A DNA stretch of 64,000 bases from Candidatus Zambryskibacteria bacterium RIFCSPLOWO2_01_FULL_39_39 (GTDB lineage Bacteria; Patescibacteriota; Minisyncoccia; Phycocordibacterales; WO2-35-19). Position numbers and translations under genes: made by a program. How positions within the stretch are numbered: the first letter of the stretch is position 1; each line of letters opens with the position of its first letter. Positions 5,194 to 51,635 of this stretch are shown piece by piece. The notes under the pieces are model-generated. The model worked only from the letters and a program-made list of their open reading frames with translations, was not told the origin of the DNA and ran no database searches. The DNA is taken from positions 9,338 to 73,337 of the forward strand of contig MHWB01000013.1 in the NCBI GenBank assembly GCA_001823925.1, read 5' to 3'.

Positions 5194-6474
5194 ATGCTGG
5201 ATATTAAGTTTATAAGGGAAAACGCGGAGTTGGTGCAGGAAGGTGCTAAAAAGAAGCACATTCTTTTTGATGTTGCTAAACTCATAGAAGTTGACGATAA
5301 AAGAAAAATAATAAGTCAAAATTTGGAAGAAAAAAGGGCTAGACAAAACAAAGTAAGTATTGATGTATCTAAAGCGGGACAATCTGGAAATATTGAAGAA
5401 AAAGAAAAACTAATAAAAGAGATGCAACCATTGAAAGAGGAAATGCAAAAAATGGAAGAAGAATTGAAAGAGGTGATGATAGCGTGGCAAAAACTTATGG
5501 TTTCGGTACCAAATATTCCCGACATGTCGGTGCCAGAGGGTGACGACGATGGTACCAATATTGAAGTAAAGAAATGGGGGGAAATTCCAAAATTTAATTT
5601 TACATCAAAAGATCACATTGAACTCATGGAAAATCTTGACTTAGCTGATTTTGAGACTGGCGCTAAAGTTTCTGGCTTCCGAGGTTATTTCTTGAAAAAC
5701 GAGGGAGCGGAACTGGCTTTTGCTATTTGGCAACTGACCATGAATTTATTTAGAGAAAAACACAAAGATTATTCGGTAATGTTTGTGCCGTCACTGGTAA
5801 AAAGGGAGACTCTGCTTGGATCAGGGTATTTGCCACAAGGTGAAGATGATTTATATAAAACTCAAGATGGGGAATATCTTTCCGGTACAGCCGAAGTGGC
5901 TACCATGAGTTATTTTGCCGATAAAATTTTGGACAAGAAAAATTTACCAACGAAGGTCTTAGCTTTTTCCCCGGCCTTTAGAAAGGAAGCTGGGAGTTAT
6001 AGCAAAGACACCAAAGGTCTTTATCGAGTACATGAGTTTATGAAATTTGAGCAAGTGATTTTATGTGAAGCTAGTCACGAAGAAAGTGTAAAGCATCATG
6101 AAGAGTTGCTTTCAAACGCCGAAGAGATGTTACAAGCACTCGGTTTACCATATCATGTAGTTATAAATTGCGGAGGCGATCTGGGCTTAGGACAGGTCAA
6201 AAAATATGACATAGAGACATGGATGCCTTCAAAAGAAAAATACGGCGAGACTCATTCTTGTTCATACTTTCACGACTTCCAAACTCGTCGGCTCAATATA
6301 AAGTACAGAGATACAGATGGAAAATTAAAATTTGCTCATTCTTTAAACAATACAGCCATTGCTACTCCAAGAATACTTATTCAATTAGTTGAAAACAATC
6401 AGCAAGCCGACGGTTCTATCATTATTCCCGAAGTCCTGCGTCCTTATATGGGTGGCAAAAGCAAAATAGAATAA
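5194..6474 (+). CDS. serS: Seryl-tRNA synthetase
   Basis: 426 aa; N-terminal coiled coil then class II core (motifs FRKEAGS, GLYRVHEF, ...). Confidence 0.9.
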   Translation: MLDIKFIRENAELVQEGAKKKHILFDVAKLIEVDDKRKIISQNLEEKRARQNKVSIDVSKAGQSGNIEEKEKLIKEMQPLKEEMQKMEEELKEVMIAWQKLMVSVPNIPDMSVPEGDDDGTNIEVKKWGEIPKFNFTSKDHIELMENLDLADFETGAKVSGFRGYFLKNEGAELAFAIWQLTMNLFREKHKDYSVMFVPSLVKRETLLGSGYLPQGEDDLYKTQDGEYLSGTAEVATMSYFADKILDKKNLPTKVLAFSPAFRKEAGSYSKDTKGLYRVHEFMKFEQVILCEASHEESVKHHEELLSNAEEMLQALGLPYHVVINCGGDLGLGQVKKYDIETWMPSKEKYGETHSCSYFHDFQTRRLNIKYRDTDGKLKFAHSLNNTAIATPRILIQLVENNQQADGSIIIPEVLRPYMGGKSKIE

Positions 6475-6495
6475 CACCCTCGCGCTACGCGTCGA

Positions 6496-6516
6496 CCCCT
6501 CTTATATTAAGAGGGG
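6496..6516. repeat. GC hairpin cccctctta-tat-taagagggg after serS (possible left end of DUF559 element)
   Basis: perfect 9-bp inverted repeat; near-identical hairpin at 7252. Confidence 0.5.
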
Positions 6517-6539: not shown

Positions 6540-6866
6540 ATGAGACAGTCAAAAAATGTAAAAATAGTGGTATTTGTACCAGTATCCTATGCGGACGTAA
6601 TTAGAGAAGTAATTGGGAAAAGTGAAGCTGGAAAAATTGGCGACTGTACTCATTGCAGTTTTTCTTCACAGGGTATTGGAAGATTTATACCAAATAATGG
6701 TGCTCACCCAACAATTGGTCAGGTCGGAAAATTAGAATCTGTACAAGAAGAACGTATAGAGTTTATTTGTGGCCGTGATTTTGTAGAAAATGTTGTTGCA
6801 GAAATTAAAAAAGTTCATCCGTATGAGGAGGTTGCTTTCGATTTATATTCATTGGAGGAATTATAA
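6540..6866 (+). CDS. Small NIF3/YqfO-like (PII-fold) domain protein, uncertain
   Basis: 108 aa; pattern VVFVP...HCSF..QG.G.F.P..GA.P.IG...E...ER.E..C.R...E.V...IK.VHPYEEVAFD resembles C-terminal part of NIF3/YbgI family. Confidence 0.3.
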   Translation: MRQSKNVKIVVFVPVSYADVIREVIGKSEAGKIGDCTHCSFSSQGIGRFIPNNGAHPTIGQVGKLESVQEERIEFICGRDFVENVVAEIKKVHPYEEVAFDLYSLEEL

Positions 6867-6880
6867 AAAATGTAATATTA

Positions 6881-7267
6881 ATGAACTCTAAATTTCTTTA
6901 TAATAATAAAGTTTTGAGAGATCGCAGACAAGAGTTAAGAAATGGTGCGACTGAATCGGAAAAAATTCTTTGGAATAATTTGAAACACAGTAAACTCGGA
7001 GGTTTTAAATTTGTAAGACAGTATAGTGTTGGCCCTTATATTCTGGATTTTTATTGTCCAAAATTGCGATTGGCAATAGAATTAGATGGAAGCCAACATA
7101 GCGAGCGAGATGCAATTTTGTATGATAAAGATAGGAATGATTATTTGGACGCTGTGTATATAAAAGTTTTGAGATTTTGGAATATGGAGATAACAAAAAA
7201 TATAAAAGGGTCGATTGATAAAATTTTACAAGAAATACTTAAAGTAGCAGACCCCCTCTTAAAATAA
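6881..7267 (+). CDS. DUF559 (Vsr-like restriction-endonuclease fold) domain protein
   Basis: 128 aa; ILWNNL...FKFVRQYSVGPYILDFYCPKLRLAIELDGSQH...RNDYLD..YIKVLRFWN.EI matches DUF559 pattern; same domain is embedded inside tgt at 49915-50160. Confidence 0.75.
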   Translation: MNSKFLYNNKVLRDRRQELRNGATESEKILWNNLKHSKLGGFKFVRQYSVGPYILDFYCPKLRLAIELDGSQHSERDAILYDKDRNDYLDAVYIKVLRFWNMEITKNIKGSIDKILQEILKVADPLLK

Positions 7268-7274
7268 GAGGGGG
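7252..7274. repeat. GC hairpin ccccctctta-aaa-taagaggggg at 3' end of DUF559 gene
   Basis: perfect 10-bp inverted repeat followed by cagggggtg. Confidence 0.5.
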
Positions 7275-7295
7275 CAGGGGGTGATATGAAATAAT

Positions 7296-49155: not shown

Positions 49156-50778
49156 ATGTTTAAAATAGAGCAAAAAATCTCGAAGTCACTGGGTCGAGCT
49201 GGTGTTTTAATTACTCCACATGGGGAGGTACAAACACCTAGCTTTGTAGCTGTCGGTACTAAAGCAACGGTCAAATCTCTCTCACCCGAACAGGTCAAAG
49301 AGGCTGGGTCGCAAATAGTTTTGGCCAATACCTATCATCTTTATTTAGAACCCGGAGAAAAAATTGTGAAAGAAGCGGGGGGCTTGGGTAAGTTTATGAA
49401 TTGGCAAGGTCCAACTATGACAGACTCGGGCGGTTTTCAAGCTTTTTCTTTGGGGGTGGCTTATGGAAGTAAGCTTAGTAAATTTATTGGCAATGAGTCT
49501 CCAAAACAAGAAGAGATAGACGAAGCTTATAGAGAAGAGCGAGATAAGAAAGCAAAGATTACCGAAGATGGGGTGGAATTTAAATCTATTATAGATGGTA
49601 GCAAACATTTTTTTACTCCAGAAAAATCAATGCAAATTCAAAGTGACCTAGGAGCTGATATTATTTTTGCTTTTGATGAGTGTACTTCACCACATGCACC
49701 CAAGGAGTATTTGAAGGAAGCTTTGGCGCGGACTCATCGTTGGGCAGAAAGGTGTTTGATTGAATACAGAAAAAATCACCCCACCCCGACCCTCCCCGAA
49801 GGGGAGGGTGCCCAAAGGGGAACTTTCGGTTATCACACAACAGATTCGGTTACTTGGAAAAATCTTCAACAAAGAGTTTTAGAAATGAGAGAAAAACCTA
49901 CTCCCGCTGAAAATATGCTATGGCAACATTTAAGAAAAAATTCAACAAAATATCATTTTAGAAGACAACATATAGTGGGAAATTTTATTGTTGATTTTGT
50001 TTGCCTAGAAAAATCATTAGTAATTGAAGTTGATGGAGATATCCATGATTACCAAAAGGAAGAAGATAAATCCAGAACAGAGTTTTTAAATAAATTAGGT
50101 TTTTATATTTTAAGATTTAAGAACGAAGAGGTAGTAGAGAATATTTTAAAAGTATTAGAGGGTATAAAGGTTGGTCTTAAAGCCCTCCCCTTTGGGGAGG
50201 GTTTGGGTGGGGTTTCTTCCCAAGCTCTCTTTGGCATAGTCCAAGGTGGCAGGTATGAAGATTTGAGGAAAGAAAGCGCTAAGGTGATAGGAGAGATGGA
50301 TTTTGATGGTTTTGGCATTGGAGGCTCCTTTGTTAAAGAAGATATGGCGACAGCGGTCAAATGGGTGAGTGGAATTTTGCCAACTGATAAACCTAGGCAT
50401 CTTTTGGGGGTGGGAGAGCCTGTTGACATTATTTTTGGTGTTGAAAACGGATGCGACACATTTGACTGTGTCGCCGCGACACGTATGGCGCGCAATGGCA
50501 CACTCTATACCAAACGAGGTAAAATAAATATCAACAACGCCAAGTATAAAAATATTTTTGAGCCGATTGAAGAGGGGTGCAAGTGTTATACTTGTAAAAA
50601 TTATACCTGTTGCTACCTTTCCCACCTTTTTCGCTCCAAAGAAATGTTGGCCGCTACTTTAGCATCTATTCATAATCTTTATTTTATAAATTCTCTGGTT
50701 GCAGAGATGAGAGAATCAATTTTAAACGAAAATTTTTTTGATTTTAAAGAAAATTTTTTAAGAGATTATAAAGTTTAG
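49156..50778 (+). CDS. tgt: Queuine tRNA-ribosyltransferase carrying an in-frame ~145-aa insertion that contains a DUF559 endonuclease domain
   Basis: 540 aa; TGT N-terminal (LITPHGEVQTPSFVAVGT, LANTYHL, TDSGGFQ), then insertion between ERCLIEYRKN and QALFGIVQGG, then zinc site CKCYTCKNYTCCYLSH. Confidence 0.8.
   Translation: MFKIEQKISKSLGRAGVLITPHGEVQTPSFVAVGTKATVKSLSPEQVKEAGSQIVLANTYHLYLEPGEKIVKEAGGLGKFMNWQGPTMTDSGGFQAFSLGVAYGSKLSKFIGNESPKQEEIDEAYREERDKKAKITEDGVEFKSIIDGSKHFFTPEKSMQIQSDLGADIIFAFDECTSPHAPKEYLKEALARTHRWAERCLIEYRKNHPTPTLPEGEGAQRGTFGYHTTDSVTWKNLQQRVLEMREKPTPAENMLWQHLRKNSTKYHFRRQHIVGNFIVDFVCLEKSLVIEVDGDIHDYQKEEDKSRTEFLNKLGFYILRFKNEEVVENILKVLEGIKVGLKALPFGEGLGGVSSQALFGIVQGGRYEDLRKESAKVIGEMDFDGFGIGGSFVKEDMATAVKWVSGILPTDKPRHLLGVGEPVDIIFGVENGCDTFDCVAATRMARNGTLYTKRGKININNAKYKNIFEPIEEGCKCYTCKNYTCCYLSHLFRSKEMLAATLASIHNLYFINSLVAEMRESILNENFFDFKENFLRDYKV
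49777..50212 (+). mobile_element. DUF559-encoding insertion element with ~35-bp GC-rich hairpin terminal inverted repeats, integrated in frame within tgt
   Basis: left end accccaccccgaccctccccgaaggggaggg is approx reverse complement of right end ccctcccctttggggagggtttgggtggggt; internal 49915-50160 encodes MLWQHLRKNSTKYHFRRQHIVGNFIVDFVCLEKSLVIEVDGDIH...LRFKNEEV (DUF559). Confidence 0.55.
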
Positions 50779-50783
50779 ATAAT

Positions 50784-51635
50784 ATGATTTACAATCTTTA
50801 TAAACAGCGGGGGGAGACACCACTAGAATGTATCCAAAGATTTGCCAGAAAAACTCCAGAATTAAAGGGAGAGAAGATGACCTATTTGGGGAGGTTGGAC
50901 CCTTTGGCCGAAGGGGTTTTGCTTATGGCTAGTGGCATTGACGTAAAGAGGAAAGAGGAGTTTTTGGGGTTGGATAAGGAATATGATTTTATTTCTATTT
51001 TTGGCTTTGCTACCGACACCTATGATGTGCTTGGTAAAATTGTAAGAGTAGAAAAAGTGCCCATTCGACAAGCTCAGGGTGAAAATGCTAATACCATTTT
51101 CGAAAATGAAATTAGGAAAGTGGCGTTAATTTATGAAGGAGAAAGAGAACAGAAATACCCAACGTATTCTTCTAAAATTATAGCCAATAAAAAAACCTCA
51201 CCCCTCGCTTCGCGTAGCCCTCTCCTTGTTCAGGAGAGGGAAGGCGTGGAGTCAGGGTCTTTGGGTTTTCCCTCCCCTGAGCAAGGGGAGGGTGGGGTGG
51301 GGTTTTCTAAAAAAATTACTATACATAAAATTCAATTTCATAAATTAGAAACTCTAAACAATAAAGAACTTTTTGGTAGGCTTCTTTCAGATATTTCAAA
51401 AGTAAATGGTGATTTCAGACAGCATGAAATTTTGATTTTATGGAAAGAAATTTTACTTAATTCGGGTGCGCCCCGGAGTTATTTTTTGGGTAGGTTTAGC
51501 GCTCATGTCTCAAGTGGCACTTATATCCGCGGTTTGGTAAACGATATAGGCAATACTTTGGGTTGTGGGGCCACCACTCTTTCTATCAAAAGGACAAGGG
51601 TTGGGGATTACAAAATTGAAGACAGTATAAAATAA
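50784..51635 (+). CDS. truB: tRNA pseudouridine(55) synthase TruB-like with Pro/Gly-rich hairpin-encoded insertion
   Basis: 283 aa; LGRLDPLAEGVLLMA catalytic Asp motif, C-terminal SSGTYIRGLVNDIGNTLGCGATTLSIKRTRVG. Confidence 0.7.
   Translation: MIYNLYKQRGETPLECIQRFARKTPELKGEKMTYLGRLDPLAEGVLLMASGIDVKRKEEFLGLDKEYDFISIFGFATDTYDVLGKIVRVEKVPIRQAQGENANTIFENEIRKVALIYEGEREQKYPTYSSKIIANKKTSPLASRSPLLVQEREGVESGSLGFPSPEQGEGGVGFSKKITIHKIQFHKLETLNNKELFGRLLSDISKVNGDFRQHEILILWKEILLNSGAPRSYFLGRFSAHVSSGTYIRGLVNDIGNTLGCGATTLSIKRTRVGDYKIEDSIK
51199..51306. repeat. Tandem GC hairpins (ccctctcc-ttgttca-ggagaggg and ccctcccc-tgagcaa-ggggaggg) + ggtggggtggggtttt inside truB
   Basis: encodes SPLASRSPLLVQEREGVESGSLGFPSPEQGEGGVGF; same family as tgt TIRs. 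Confidence 0.6.

What the first reader, a model, noticed from the sequence alone, without database searches (positions are those of the whole stretch)
49777..50212. DUF559 endonuclease element with GC-hairpin terminal inverted repeats inserted in frame inside tgt
The tgt reading frame is continuous, but about 145 aa sit between the conserved TGT blocks ...ERCLIEYRKN and QALFGIVQGG. The inserted DNA is bounded by ~35-bp GC-rich ends that are approximate reverse complements of each other. The left end reads accccaccccg-accctcccc-gaa-ggggaggg; the reverse complement of the right end reads accccaccc-aa-accctcccc-aaa-ggggaggg. The interior (49915-50160) encodes a complete DUF559 / Vsr-like endonuclease domain, the same domain found as a free-standing gene at 6881-7267. 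Both ends are translated as Pro/Gly-rich linkers (LPEGEG and LPFGEGLGG). This looks like a compact endonuclease-carrying mobile element that tolerates, or requires, in-frame residence inside a host protein. It is distinct from inteins (no Cys/Ser/Thr splice junctions or HN block) and from introns. I am not aware of a described DUF559 transposon or homing unit with hairpin TIRs.
Basis: partly seen in the sequence, partly recalled or inferred. Interest (0 to 1): 0.85.

Follow-up and report, generated by a model that had tools for sequence, protein, structure and literature searches.

The report
Triplex-ended nuclease element inside tgt
A small, selfish-looking DNA element sits in frame inside the tRNA-modification gene tgt and is read through as an extra protein domain: it is a Vsr-like (DUF559) nuclease gene bracketed by inverted copies of the BoxC/PIT triplex-forming repeat, and the same kind of element is embedded in dozens of other housekeeping proteins across bacterial phyla, which makes the nuclease a testable candidate for the unknown mobility factor of those repeats.

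Summary
The tgt ORF (49156-50778, Candidatus Zambryskibacteria) carries about 145 extra residues between conserved TGT blocks. They hold a complete DUF559 domain (E=5e-32) bounded by 31-nt inverted repeats (90% complementary).

The mobile-element reading is supported by comparison. Fourteen Tgt orthologs carry a DUF559 at this loop. Closer orthologs are empty or carry short hairpin inserts. Two hosts 96% identical carry inserts only 52% identical. Related DUF559 units lie in frame in LeuRS, IleRS, MetH, RecJ, PriA, UvrB, XseA, TsaE, glycosyltransferases and others, and also free-standing.

Each end has three blocks: Y1, 3 nt, Y2, loop, R. R is the reverse complement of Y2 and Y1 is its mirror image. 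This is the known BoxC/PIT/TMECO intrastrand-triplex repeat of E. coli and cyanobacteria, for which no mobility gene was ever found. E. coli's DUF559 gene, ycjD, lies 168 nt from a BoxC copy.

The end-encoded peptides are predicted to be disordered linkers, and catalytic-type residues are intact in 69 of 69 embedded copies. No intein or intron signature was found.

Best reading: a nuclease-driven selfish element tolerated as a translated domain insert. Mobility and mechanism are inferred, not shown. I found no prior description of the DUF559-BoxC link.

The parts
49156..50778 (+). Host gene tgt (queuine tRNA-ribosyltransferase), a single 540-aa ORF interrupted in frame by the element
   Evidence: ORF list. 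Pfam TGT E=2.8e-137 in two stretches. 100% identical to a Candidatus Zambryskibacteria protein. Host catalytic and Zn-site columns are invariant across 29 orthologs.
49779..49808 (+). Left end module: Y1 CCCCACCC (49779-86), spacer CGA (49787-89), Y2 CCCTCCCC (49790-97), loop GAA (49798-800), R GGGGAGGG (49801-08). The T-motif (Y1) points outward. Translated as PTPTLPEGEG.
   Evidence: Inverted-repeat arm 49778-49808. Hairpin of -10 kcal/mol as ssDNA. Mirror relation of Y1 to Y2 is shown for the right arm (7/8 positions) and read directly from the left arm, whose hairpin the scan did not pick up. Matches the TMECO/BoxC block design (PMC4666352).
49861..50172 (+). DUF559 / Vsr-like PD-(D/E)XK nuclease domain (aa 236-339 of the fusion protein)
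   Evidence: Pfam PF04480 E=4.9e-32. PDB 3HRL E=1e-20; with profile A2, 3HRL E=1e-33 and 3R3P (I-Bth0305I) E=2e-4. NCBIfam PRK09767, the YcjD family. pLDDT about 80-90 in the model. Conserved D(DF), ExD, H, RRQ and PTxAE..LW.
50183..50212 (+). Right end module: Y CCCTCCCC (50183-90), loop TTT (50191-93), R GGGGAGGG (50194-201), spacer TTT (50202-04), R1 GGGTGGGG (50205-12). This is the purine-motif triplex design on the top strand. Translated as LPFGEGLGG.
   Evidence: Inverted-repeat arm 50183-50213. Hairpin of -9.3 kcal/mol. R1 is the mirror of R with A replaced by T. Same block order as TMECO, CCCTCNCCC-N3-6-GGGNGAGGG-N3-GGGNGAGGG.
51196..51302 (+). Related non-autonomous element (MITE-like pair of modules with no nuclease), in frame in truB
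   Evidence: Sequence. A 33-aa insert relative to the empty TruB ortholog L003. Folds as one long hairpin, -33.9 kcal/mol, z=-6.2. The same family occupies the tgt loop in L005/P0022. It also lies in frame in a class II aaRS, an MBL-fold protein and a glycosyltransferase, and in intergenic DNA, in other CPR contigs.
6881..7267 (+). Second, free-standing DUF559 gene of a different lineage (about 35% identical)
   Evidence: Pfam E=3e-32. tblastn 34.9% identity to the tgt copy.
7252..7285 (+). Right end module of the free-standing DUF559: CCCCCTCTT-AAAAT-AAGAGGGGG-CA-GGGGGTGAT. The stop codon lies in the hairpin loop.
   Evidence: Sequence. Hairpin of -10.3 kcal/mol, z=-4.0. Mirror match 7/9 as scored; both remaining positions are T-to-A changes.
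6473..6516 (+). Possible cognate left module, with the same unusual stem (CCCCTCTT/AAGAGGGG) and a 16-nt mini-hairpin inserted between Y1 and Y2. It is separated from the DUF559 gene by ORF 6540-6866.
   Evidence: Sequence. Fold of -13.5 kcal/mol, z=-5.2. The pairing with 7252-7285 is inferred from the shared stem and loop only.

Best explanation
The 436-438-bp segment is a copy of a widespread selfish genetic unit. It consists of one gene for a Vsr-like PD-(D/E)XK nuclease (DUF559) flanked by two inverted BoxC/PIT-type modules, each able to fold into a hairpin or an intrastrand purine-motif triplex.

**Shown**
- The unit is gained, lost and replaced at the same loop of Tgt.
- Related units sit in many other host genes and in intergenic DNA.
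- Nuclease-less derivatives with the same ends exist.

**Inferred**
- The nuclease makes a break, either at a target or at the structured ends, and host recombination or repair copies the unit in, as in homing. A hydrolytic nuclease cannot carry out strand transfer by itself.
- The shared end modules give related elements a landing pad. This would explain repeated occupation and turnover at the same sites.
- Only harmless insertions survive in a compact, gene-dense CPR (Candidate Phyla Radiation) genome. These are copies in the sense orientation, in frame, in permissive surface loops.
- The ends suit this role. Their pyrimidine and purine runs hold no stop codon in any frame, and they encode Pro/Gly/Ser/Glu-rich flexible linkers.
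- The nuclease therefore folds as a separate domain hanging from an alpha-to-beta loop on the face of the TIM barrel opposite the Tgt active site. It is expressed as part of the host protein.
For: **Discrete unit**
- ORF, Pfam domain and inverted repeat.

**Patchy occupancy of the tgt loop**
- P0001-P0014 carry DUF559. P0015, P0016, P0047 and P0067 are empty. Others carry short inserts.
- Filled Tgts are not a clade. P0001's host part is 83% identical to empty P0015 but only 67-81% identical to other filled ones.
- P0007 and P0011 have host parts 96% identical and inserts 52% identical. At DNA level the flanks are 89-95% identical and the insert 68%.
- The hairpin MITE of truB occupies the tgt site in L005.

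**Other hosts, in frame**
- LeuRS, MetH (two sites), RecJ, acetyl-CoA synthetase, adenine deaminase, PriA, IleRS, an IcmF-like mutase, MurF-Alr and a type ISP restriction-modification (RM) enzyme.
- TsaE.
- UvrB, XseA, GT2 glycosyltransferases, a 2-epimerase, SpoIIE phosphatases and an alpha/beta hydrolase.

**Relatedness of copies**
- DUF559 domains cluster by phylum with hosts intermixed. The closest pairs in different contexts are 76% and 71% identical.

**Flanking repeats across phyla**
- 47 of the 84 DUF559 copies with enough flank to test have a flanking inverted repeat far above shuffles.
- All-pyrimidine-stem hairpins occur in 109/393 windows near DUF559, against 17/1213 windows at least 600 nt away.

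**Structure-level selection on the ends**
- Many different perfectly complementary stems are seen.
- The mirror relation scores 496/680 against 388±8.5 in permutations. A or T lies opposite a stem T in 114/153 cases, against 48±5.
- The T-motif points outward in 86 of 107 modules that have one.

**Nuclease kept functional**
- D(DF), ExD, H, RRQ, PTxAE..LW and RF are about 100% conserved in 69 embedded copies and in all 14 Tgt inserts.

**Linkers and domain**
- Residues 209-226 and 345-354 have pLDDT<50. The domain and the barrel are modelled confidently.

**Homing precedent in the fold family**
- The profile hits I-Bth0305I (3R3P) at E=2e-4.

**Identity of the ends**
- They match BoxC/PIT/TMECO repeats, for which no mobility gene was found (PMC4666352).
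- TMECO #9 lies 168 nt downstream of E. coli ycjD (DUF559), on the same strand with the T-motif outward.
Against: - **No direct sign of recent movement.** No near-identical copies were found at different sites; the best pair is 76% identical. No target-site duplication and no shared target motif were found.
- **Enzymology.** A PD-(D/E)XK nuclease alone cannot catalyse transposition, so host functions must be invoked.
- **Incomplete association.** About 44% of tested DUF559 copies lack a detectable flanking inverted repeat. 20 of 107 modules have the opposite orientation.
- **E. coli counts.** BoxC is present in all 5426 complete genomes (median 19 places), but ycjD in only 62%, with at most 2 places per genome. 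There the repeats persist without this nuclease.
- **Sampling bias.** The 80 loci were the hits most similar to an embedded copy and were selected through the pattern L[VI][IV]EVDGx[IQV]H. The fraction embedded and the conservation of ExDG..H are therefore biased.
- **Possible native fusions.** Some long hosts (AAA_11/12 helicases, RM enzymes) may be native fusions rather than insertions.
- **Untested.** Expression of the fusion protein and nuclease activity have not been tested.
Confidence: 0.68

Rival explanations
1. The two components are independent. BoxC/PIT modules spread by some other means, such as an unknown trans-acting factor or replication/repair errors at non-B DNA. The DUF559 gene is then either a homing-endonuclease gene that targets the centre of pre-existing module pairs, or a gene around which modules accumulate. 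On this reading the nuclease is a passenger or parasite of the repeat, not its mobiliser.
For: - Nuclease-less module pairs and solo modules occupy the same kinds of sites, including the same tgt and truB loops.
- E. coli keeps about 19 BoxC places per genome whether or not ycjD is present.
- Module arrays and tandem duplications occur at element ends: the L002 right end, and P0125 and P0137.
- 20 modules have the inward orientation, as expected if a gene landed between two tail-to-tail modules like the five E. coli inverted pairs.
Against: - The truB/tgt MITE centre shows no similarity to the sub-terminal DNA of DUF559 elements on direct reading.
- The two modules flanking a given DUF559 share the same idiosyncratic stem, for example CCCCTCTT in the window and CCCCCTCC, CCCTTTCC and CCCCTCTCC elsewhere. 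This fits co-inheritance as one unit.
- The outward orientation dominates, 86 to 20.
- Holder et al. found no other mobility function next to BoxC.
Confidence: 0.2
2. The DUF559 domain is a domesticated, functional part of Tgt and of the other hosts, for example a nucleic-acid-binding or repair module. It would be vertically inherited as an ordinary domain fusion.
For: - The domain is intact and conserved in 14 Tgt lineages down to 63% overall identity.
- Many hosts act on nucleic acids: Tgt, aminoacyl-tRNA synthetases, RecJ, PriA, UvrB, XseA and RM enzymes.
Against: - Distribution is patchy and non-monophyletic, with replacement at one site.
- Hosts also include MetH, adenine deaminase, acetyl-CoA synthetase, glycosyltransferases, an epimerase and an alpha/beta hydrolase, with the insert splitting their catalytic domains.
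- The linkers are disordered, and their sequence is conserved at DNA level as structure-forming inverted repeats rather than at peptide level. Reading frames through the modules differ between copies.
- Free-standing copies carry the same ends.
Confidence: 0.06
3. The insert is removed before the mature protein is made. Candidate routes are protein splicing (intein-like), RNA splicing (group I/II intron), processing guided by pairing of the two inverted ends, or ribosomal bypassing of GC-rich hairpins.
For: - The two ends are complementary and could pair in the mRNA to bring the junctions together.
- Vsr-like nucleases are known inside introns and inteins, as with I-Bth0305I and the EDxHD family (PMC3239194 and PMC2677866, listed).
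Against: - No Hint or intein family was hit at E<=0.01.
- Junction residues vary and hold no conserved Cys/Ser/Thr or His-Asn.
- No Rfam family reached gathering score, and only noise (E about 0.7) appeared in a permissive scan of 49600-50400.
- Every embedded copy seen keeps the host frame open, with no stop, through 400-700 nt. That is needed only if the insert is translated.
Confidence: 0.03
4. The inverted repeats mark a programmed DNA inversion switch acting on the DUF559 segment.
For: 'DUF559 domain-containing protein' is enriched (odds ratio 14) among predicted programmed-inversion targets in Milman et al. 2023 (PMC9881135).
Against: - Inversion inside tgt, leuS or metH would destroy an essential or housekeeping ORF.
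- No recombinase gene is adjacent in the window or listed in the related loci.
- The enrichment follows simply from inverted repeats overlapping these genes.
Confidence: 0.02

Closest known systems
BoxC / PIT (potential intrastrand triplex) / TMECO repeats of E. coli, other Enterobacteria and Cyanobacteria (Bergler 1992; Hoyne & Maher 2000, 2002; Holder et al. 2015, PMC4666352)
   Same: - The same three-block design: pyrimidine block, loop, purine block, 3-nt loop, mirrored purine block.
- The same kind of sequence (CCCTCNCCC…GGGNGAGGG-N3-GGGNGAGGG).
- Occurrence as solo copies and as inverted pairs.
- The A/T ambiguity opposite A-T pairs fits the class II purine-motif triplex that Holder et al. 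demonstrated in vitro.
   Different: - Here the modules bracket a protein-coding gene and lie inside ORFs, translated. E. coli copies were reported as 'always intergenic' with no associated mobility gene.
- Stems differ between lineages.
- The host is an AT-rich CPR bacterium.
REP / RAYT systems (REPtrons, REPINs)
   Same: A single nuclease-type gene flanked by two inverted copies of a short structured repeat, which also exists as far more numerous solo copies and doublets without the gene.
   Different: - RAYT is an HUH/Y1 transposase that forms covalent intermediates. DUF559 is a hydrolytic PD-(D/E)XK nuclease.
- REPs are tagged hairpins, not triplex motifs.
- RAYTs are not embedded in host proteins.
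Rickettsia palindromic elements (RPEs; Ogata et al. 2000, recalled from memory; mentioned in PMC1779305, listed)
   Same: Palindromic repeats inserted in frame in housekeeping genes and translated as extra peptide segments at permissive sites.
   Different: RPEs carry no gene and have no known autonomous partner. Their sequence family is unrelated, and they are restricted to Rickettsia.
Homing endonuclease genes of the Vsr-like EDxHD family (I-Bth0305I, PDB 3R3P) and inteins
   Same: - The nuclease fold is related (profile E=2e-4).
- Residence in conserved housekeeping genes.
- Presence/absence at fixed sites and recurrence of the same site across phyla.
- Like inteins, in-frame insertion.
   Different: - No intron ribozyme and no Hint splicing domain, so the insert stays in the protein.
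- Structured terminal inverted repeats, which homing endonuclease genes lack.
- Insertion in variable loops rather than in active-site motifs.
E. coli YcjD and N. gonorrhoeae endonuclease-like protein (PDB 3HRL); Vsr
   Same: The same Pfam family and NCBIfam model (PRK09767). 3HRL is the closest solved structure (E=1e-20). The catalytic-type residues are Vsr-like.
   Different: Those are free-standing small proteins of unknown function. Vsr has a defined T:G mismatch repair role tied to Dcm. No such link is evident here.

Membership tests
DUF559 (PF04480) / Vsr-like PD-(D/E)XK nucleases | Sequence match to the family model above the curated cut-off | tested here: met
   110.5 bits against a cut-off of 20.6, E=4.9e-32. 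3HRL E=1e-20.
DUF559 (PF04480) / Vsr-like PD-(D/E)XK nucleases | Conserved acidic/His catalytic-type residues (D in xDF, ExD, H) | tested here: met
   Invariant in alignment A2, in all 14 Tgt inserts and in 69/69 embedded copies. ExDG..H is partly biased by the scan pattern.
DUF559 (PF04480) / Vsr-like PD-(D/E)XK nucleases | Endonuclease activity | not testable with these tools
   Needs biochemistry.
BoxC / PIT / TMECO intrastrand triplex motif | Three consecutive blocks: Y, a 3-6 nt loop, R (reverse complement of Y), an approximately 3-nt loop, then R1 (mirror of R) | tested here: met
   The window right end is CCCTCCCC-TTT-GGGGAGGG-TTT-GGGTGGGG. Across 81 modules the mirror relation is 496/680 against 388±8.5, with the best-fitting spacer being 3 nt in most modules listed. 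Consensus from PMC4666352.
BoxC / PIT / TMECO intrastrand triplex motif | Triads compatible with the purine motif (G·GC, A·AT or T·AT) | tested here: met
   With the best-fitting spacer, the base opposite a stem T is T (90) or A (50), and C or G in only 13 cases. With the spacer fixed at 3 nt, A or T in 114/153.
BoxC / PIT / TMECO intrastrand triplex motif | Triplex formation by the isolated strand | not testable with these tools
   ViennaRNA predicts only the hairpin. CD and NMR were done for the E. coli sequence by Holder et al., not for this one.
BoxC / PIT / TMECO intrastrand triplex motif | Intergenic location, as reported for E. coli | tested here: not met
   Here the modules lie inside tgt and truB and are translated.
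Intein | Hint domain blocks, an N-terminal Cys/Ser, and a C-terminal His-Asn followed by Cys/Ser/Thr | tested here: not met
   No Hint or intein Pfam hit. Junction residues are variable across 14 orthologs.
Group I / group II intron | Ribozyme core detectable by covariance model | tested here: not met
   Rfam at gathering threshold finds only 2 tRNAs in the window. The permissive scan gives only E about 0.7 noise.
Classical TIR transposon / MITE | Terminal inverted repeats | tested here: met
Classical TIR transposon / MITE | Target-site duplication | tested here: inconclusive
   No direct repeat was seen at the junctions of 41 elements. Exact ends cannot be fixed without clean empty sites.
Classical TIR transposon / MITE | A transposase (DDE, HUH, Ser or Tyr), encoded or known in trans | tested here: not met
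   The only ORF is DUF559.
REP/RAYT | HUH Y1 transposase gene flanked by inverted REPs | tested here: not met
   The architecture is analogous, but the gene is a PD-(D/E)XK nuclease.
Homing endonuclease gene | Presence/absence polymorphism at a fixed site in a conserved gene, recurring across lineages | tested here: met
   The Tgt loop ([L025, Saccharibacteria]). The LeuRS loop in Bacteroidota and Patescibacteria.
Homing endonuclease gene | The encoded enzyme cleaves the empty allele | not testable with these tools
   Needs biochemistry.
Rickettsia palindromic element-like in-frame repeat | Palindromic repeat inserted in frame and translated within housekeeping proteins | tested here: met
   The truB MITE, with further in-frame copies in an aaRS, an MBL-fold protein and a glycosyltransferase. 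Sequence membership in the RPE families was not tested.

The most novel reading that the evidence does not exclude
DUF559/YcjD-type nucleases are the missing partner of the BoxC/PIT intrastrand-triplex repeats. Together they would form a previously unrecognised class of bacterial mobile element, with three defining traits:
- a structure-specific hydrolytic nuclease that acts on triplex- or hairpin-forming ends;
- spread by break-induced copying;
- the ability to live either free-standing or as an unspliced, translated domain insert in essential proteins.

That last trait would be a third solution, beside introns and inteins, to the problem of invading coding sequence harmlessly.
Probability: 0.35. 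Interest if true: 0.92.

Novelty: new variant of a known kind. Interest (0 to 1): 0.85.

Why it matters
- **An old open question becomes testable.** BoxC/PIT triplex repeats have been known since 1992. [quoted passage not shown] DUF559 is a very large orphan family, with 21,810 representative clusters at E<=1e-3 and a solved structure but no known function. Finding the two physically coupled across at least six phyla gives each a candidate role. It also gives a direct test in E. coli, using YcjD and the adjacent TMECO #9.
- **A possible third way to invade coding sequence.** The in-frame copies suggest that selfish DNA can colonise essential genes in gene-dense genomes by being translated through, with built-in stop-free linker-coding ends.
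- **Practical consequences.**
  - Annotation: LeuRS, MetH, Tgt and others with 'extra domains', and DUF559 fragments mis-named after their hosts.
  - Protein engineering: natural permissive insertion sites and linkers.
  - Interpretation of the unusually long proteins of CPR bacteria.

Tried and rejected
1. **Intein or intron.** No Hint domain and no ribozyme were found, and junction residues are variable.
2. **Target-site duplication or common target motif.** Flanks of 41 elements were inspected and nothing convincing emerged. Element length from Y1 to R1 is 2 mod 3 in 24 of 41 cases, so the true ends probably extend 1-2 nt further, but they cannot be fixed without clean empty sites.
3. **Derivation of the truB/tgt MITE from a DUF559 element by internal deletion.** The MITE centre shows no similarity to sub-terminal DUF559-element DNA, and its left module differs.
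4. **A clean filled/empty pair in E. coli.** Strains without ycjD, such as O157:H7, carry a different island between sapF and fabI, so the boundaries are uninformative.
5. **G-quadruplex as the selected structure.** The window's right end is a canonical G4 motif, but T-rich variants such as GGAAAGGG…GGGGATAGGA are not. Position-specific mirror covariation is not needed for a G4, so the triplex or mirror design fits better.
6. **Pyrimidine-motif (C-rich strand) triplex.** The frequent A opposite A-T pairs fits the purine motif only.
7. **Site-specialised homing lineages crossing phyla.** The tree groups copies by phylum with hosts intermixed.
8. **Literature.** Nine full-text searches and several paper reads found no description of DUF559 with BoxC or triplex ends, or of DUF559 as an in-frame mobile insert. 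Hoyne & Maher 2000 could not be read.
9. **The possible 6473-6516 / 7252-7285 pair enclosing an extra ORF** was not resolved.


Full report
**1. The observation**

The window comes from a Candidatus Zambryskibacteria (CPR/Patescibacteria) genome; its Tgt is 100% identical to a protein of that organism. One ORF, 49156-50778 (+), encodes 540 aa. Pfam finds the TGT family in two stretches, split at profile position about 167/168, and a full DUF559 domain (PF04480, E=4.9e-32) at residues 236-339.

The repeat finder reports inverted arms 49778-49808 and 50183-50213, each 31 nt and 90% complementary. Each arm holds its own hairpin, CCCTCCCC-N3-GGGGAGGG. These are the only two matches in 64 kb, against none in 100 shuffles. 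The free-standing gene at 6881-7267 is also DUF559, but it is only about 35% identical to the tgt copy.

**2. It is an insertion, and the site turns over**

Among Tgt relatives, fourteen (63-100% identical overall) carry a DUF559 domain at this loop. Many closer ones do not. In alignment A1, P0015, P0016, P0047 and P0067 go from …RWAERC..E.KK to Q.LFGIVQGG with only 2-6 residues between. Others carry unrelated 25-55-residue inserts at the same place.

Host-only identities show that the filled proteins are not a clade. The window's Tgt is 83% identical to empty P0015 and 67-81% identical to other filled proteins.

The strongest pair is P0007 and P0011. Their host parts are 96% identical and their inserts 52%. 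At DNA level the flanking tgt sequence is 89-95% identical and the insert 68%, and the end hairpins differ (CCCTCCCC against CCCTCTCC). This indicates independent acquisition or replacement, not vertical descent. A Saccharibacteria Tgt (L025) has a DUF559 at the same profile position.

**3. The same unit lives in many other proteins, and also on its own**

A scan of one genome per species with a DUF559 profile returned 80 loci from Bacteroidota, Patescibacteria, Chloroflexota, Cyanobacteria, Proteobacteria, Acidobacteriota and Bdellovibrionota. In about 50 of them the DUF559 reading frame stays open for 450-1370 residues.

Pfam identifies the following hosts:
- LeuRS (many loci) and IleRS
- MetH, at two sites
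- RecJ, with the insert inside the DHH domain
- acetyl-CoA synthetase and adenine deaminase
- PriA
- an IcmF-like mutase and a MurF-Alr fusion
- type ISP restriction enzymes and an AddB-like nuclease

A TsaE with an internal DUF559 came from the protein search.

An exhaustive HMMER search of 1.84 billion representatives gave 21,810 hits at E<=1e-3. About half of the best 150 are long proteins with an internal match. Thirty of these added UvrB, XseA, GT2 glycosyltransferases, UDP-GlcNAc 2-epimerase, an alpha/beta hydrolase, SpoIIE-type phosphatases and a second LeuRS site. Several have the host catalytic domain split in two by the insert.

All LeuRS inserts in the genome-scan loci lie in one loop, after NWIGxSxGAxVxF and before (I/V)xVFTTRPDT, in both Bacteroidota and Patescibacteria. 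The MetH sites are likewise short variable loops between ultra-conserved blocks.

Free-standing copies with the same ends exist. P0123 lies between murG and gltX. P0121 is wedged between an arsC-like gene and leuS, with an ATGA start/stop overlap. That leuS itself carries a second, 56%-identical copy in frame.

In a neighbour-joining tree the nuclease domains group mainly by phylum, with host genes intermixed. The most similar pairs in different contexts are 76% identical (two different MetH sites) and 71% identical (LeuRS against Tgt). That is as close as copies sharing the Tgt site, which are 48-70% identical between distinct proteins. Movement between genes has therefore occurred repeatedly, though I saw no very recent event.

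**4. Anatomy of the ends**

In 47 of the 84 DUF559 copies with enough flank to test, the left flank aligns with the reverse complement of the right flank far above shuffled controls. All-pyrimidine-stem hairpins occur in 109 of 393 200-nt windows next to DUF559, against 17 of 1213 windows at least 600 nt away.

The stems differ between lineages (CCCTCCCC, CCCCTCTCC, CCCTTCCC, CCCTTTCC, CCCCCTCC, CCTTCTCCT and others) but stay perfectly complementary. That amounts to many compensatory changes.

The 8-10 nt outside each hairpin are the mirror image (the reverse, not the complement) of the pyrimidine arm. The best-fitting spacer is 3 nt in most modules. With the spacer fixed at 3 nt, 496 of 680 positions are identical, against 388±8.5 in 2000 permutations (maximum 416). 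The base opposite a stem T is A or T in 114 of 153 cases, against 48±5.

Read on the G-rich strand, each end is Y-loop-R-loop-R1, with G opposite G-C pairs and A or T opposite A-T pairs. That is the design of an intramolecular purine-motif triplex. In the window the two ends read:
- Left: CCCCACCC-CGA-CCCTCCCC-GAA-GGGGAGGG (49779-49808).
- Right: CCCTCCCC-TTT-GGGGAGGG-TTT-GGGTGGGG (50183-50212).

The mirrored block points away from the nuclease gene in 86 modules and toward it in 20.

**5. The ends are a known repeat of unknown origin**

The E. coli DUF559 gene is ycjD; NCBIfam PRK09767 matches both window copies. Its downstream region contains CCCTCGCCCCTCTGGGGAGAGGGTTAGGGTGAGGGG. This is TMECO #9 of Holder et al. 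2015 (PMC4666352, Table 1). It lies 168 nt after ycjD, on the same strand, with the mirrored block outward.

Holder et al. define TMECO (formerly BoxC, or PIT elements) as CCCTCNCCC-N3-6-GGGNGAGGG-N3-GGGNGAGGG. They report the following:
- a stable class II purine-motif triplex in vitro, by CD and NMR;
- 23 copies in MG1655, five of them inverted pairs, and occurrence in more than 260 genomes;
- higher variability at TMECO loci;
- no associated mobility functions;
- in MG1655, the motif is 'always located intergenically'.

Their reference for the first BoxC description is Bergler 1992, the envM (=fabI) paper. By my own knowledge envM is fabI, the gene next to ycjD.

In 5426 complete E. coli genomes, the BoxC query matches all of them (median 19 places). 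ycjD is present in 62%. No paper I could search links BoxC to DUF559 or ycjD. Milman et al. 2023 list 'DUF559 domain-containing protein' as enriched among predicted inversion targets. That is an independent sign that inverted repeats overlap these genes.

**6. Non-autonomous relatives**

In the window, truB (50784-51635) carries a 107-nt pair of such modules (about 51196-51302), in frame. It adds 33 residues relative to the empty ortholog and folds as one long hairpin (-33.9 kcal/mol, z=-6.2). The same family fills the tgt loop in L005/P0022.

An exact-pattern scan of metagenomes found its left module in ten contigs. Copies lie in frame in a class II aaRS, an MBL-fold protein, a glycosyltransferase and the truB ortholog. 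Others form intergenic MITEs with GACCTCACCCC…GGGGTGAGGTC termini.

**7. Consequences for the host protein**

In an AlphaFold model of the fusion (mean pLDDT 78.8), the TIM barrel and the DUF559 domain (231-343) are confident. Exactly the end-encoded segments (209-226 and 345-354) fall below pLDDT 50.

The insertion lies between helix 183-207 and strand 357-362, an alpha-to-beta loop. By general TIM-barrel geometry this is on the face opposite the catalytic ends of the strands; that placement is an inference.

Pyrimidine and purine runs cannot contain stop codons in any frame, and they encode Pro/Ser/Leu/Thr and Gly/Glu/Arg/Lys. The frames used differ between copies: LPEGEG, SPKERG and, at the right end, LPLWGRVG. 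Conservation is therefore at the nucleic-acid level. Host catalytic columns are invariant.

The nuclease residues D(DF), ExD, H, RRQ, PTxAE..LW and RF are conserved in all 14 Tgt inserts and in 69 of 69 embedded copies. The ExDG..H part is partly biased by the scan pattern.

**8. What it is not**

- No Hint or intein family is hit, and no conserved junction nucleophiles exist.
- No Rfam family matches the region.
- Inversion would destroy the host gene, and no recombinase gene is nearby.
- It is not an assembly artefact. The architecture recurs in independent assemblies from NCBI, JGI, ENA and Logan.

**9. Mechanism**

Shown: a discrete nuclease-plus-inverted-module unit, gained, lost and replaced at fixed permissive loops. 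It is present in many hosts and phyla, with nuclease-less derivatives, structure-level selection on the ends and purifying selection on the nuclease.

Inferred: the nuclease initiates spread by making a break, and host recombination copies the unit. This resembles homing, and a related fold does this in I-Bth0305I (profile hit to 3R3P, E=2e-4). The shared structured ends would act as the nuclease's substrate, as portable homology, or both. Selection then leaves only sense-oriented, in-frame copies in tolerant loops.

Several points weigh against a simple version of this:
- no target-site duplication or common target motif was found;
- no near-identical copies were found;
- about 44% of copies have no detectable flanking repeat;
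- some modules are inverted;
- E. coli keeps BoxC without ycjD.

The main rival is that modules and nuclease are separate parasites, with the nuclease gene homing into module pairs.

**10. Novelty and verdict**

Each component is known separately:
- DUF559, an orphan nuclease family.
- BoxC/PIT triplex repeats, whose origin is unexplained.
- In-frame palindromic repeats, as in Rickettsia.
- REP-RAYT architecture.
- Vsr-like homing endonucleases.

Their combination was not found in the literature available to me. That combination is a nuclease gene bracketed by triplex-motif inverted repeats, widespread across phyla, and living as an unspliced, translated domain insert in housekeeping proteins. 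I rate it a new variant of known kinds of selfish element. There is a substantial chance that it defines a new class and explains the spread of BoxC/PIT repeats. Interest 0.85.

Noticed in passing
window 51196-51302 (truB, 50784-51635): A 107-nt pair of BoxC-type modules without a nuclease is inserted in frame in truB, adding 33 aa relative to an empty ortholog. The same MITE family fills the tgt loop in another genome. It also lies in frame in a class II aaRS, an MBL-fold protein and a glycosyltransferase in other CPR contigs.
   Followed up: yes
window 6473-6516 and 7252-7285, enclosing ORF 6540-6866 and DUF559 6881-7267: Two modules with the same unusual stem (CCCCTCTT/AAGAGGGG) lie in inverted orientation about 800 bp apart. 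They bracket the free-standing DUF559 gene and also a 108-aa ORF with no Pfam or NCBIfam hit. The left module has a 16-nt mini-hairpin between Y1 and Y2. It is unresolved whether this is a composite unit with a passenger gene or a chance neighbour.
   Followed up: partly
Tgt orthologs P0021, P0025, P0028, P0044 and P0069 (alignment A1, columns about 280-440): The same Tgt loop holds a different, recurrent insert family (…EQPEYFSAEKSPHSPASRGPRVAL…), as well as other short inserts. The loop is therefore a general hot spot for in-frame insertions in Parcubacteria.
   Followed up: no
window about 51060-51090 (TruB residues about 92-104): TruB carries a second, separate 10-residue insert relative to the L003 ortholog, within VPIRQAQGENANT. 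It is unrelated to the module pair.
   Followed up: no
window 50194-50212 (and the bottom strand of 49779-49797): The G-rich strand of each tgt-element end (GGGGAGGGTTTGGGTGGGG) is also a canonical four-tract G-quadruplex motif with loops of 1, 3 and 1 nt. T-rich variants of the module elsewhere are not.
   Followed up: partly
L100 1199-1639 and 1700-5011: One CPR contig holds two DUF559 units 60 bp apart. One is free-standing, and its ATG overlaps the stop of the upstream gene (ATGA). The other lies in frame in leuS. They are 56% identical.
   Followed up: yes
P0246 and P0253 (LeuRS relatives): Besides DUF559, these LeuRS proteins carry a NUDIX domain inserted after the editing domain. This is another unexpected domain insert in CPR-type LeuRS.
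   Followed up: no
P0248 (1214 aa, Eco57I/N6_Mtase): A restriction-modification enzyme carries two DUF559 domains, at about 545-653 and 1072-1177.
   Followed up: no
L096 (E. coli MG1655 1351040-1351830): Between ycjD and TMECO #9 lie a degenerate hairpin at the ycjD stop and a duplicated fragment of the ycjD 3' end, suggesting nested or rearranged units. ycjD is absent from 38% of complete E. coli genomes. In strain ETEC6 it is split by IS1.
   Followed up: partly
L003 3625-3640, and orthologs P0047 and P0016: 'Empty' tgt loops often retain a 12-nt C-rich stretch that looks like a lone outer block: AGCCCCTCCCAG encoding SPSQ in L003/P0016, and LTPN in P0047. These may be footprints of lost elements, or else part of the target.
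   Followed up: partly
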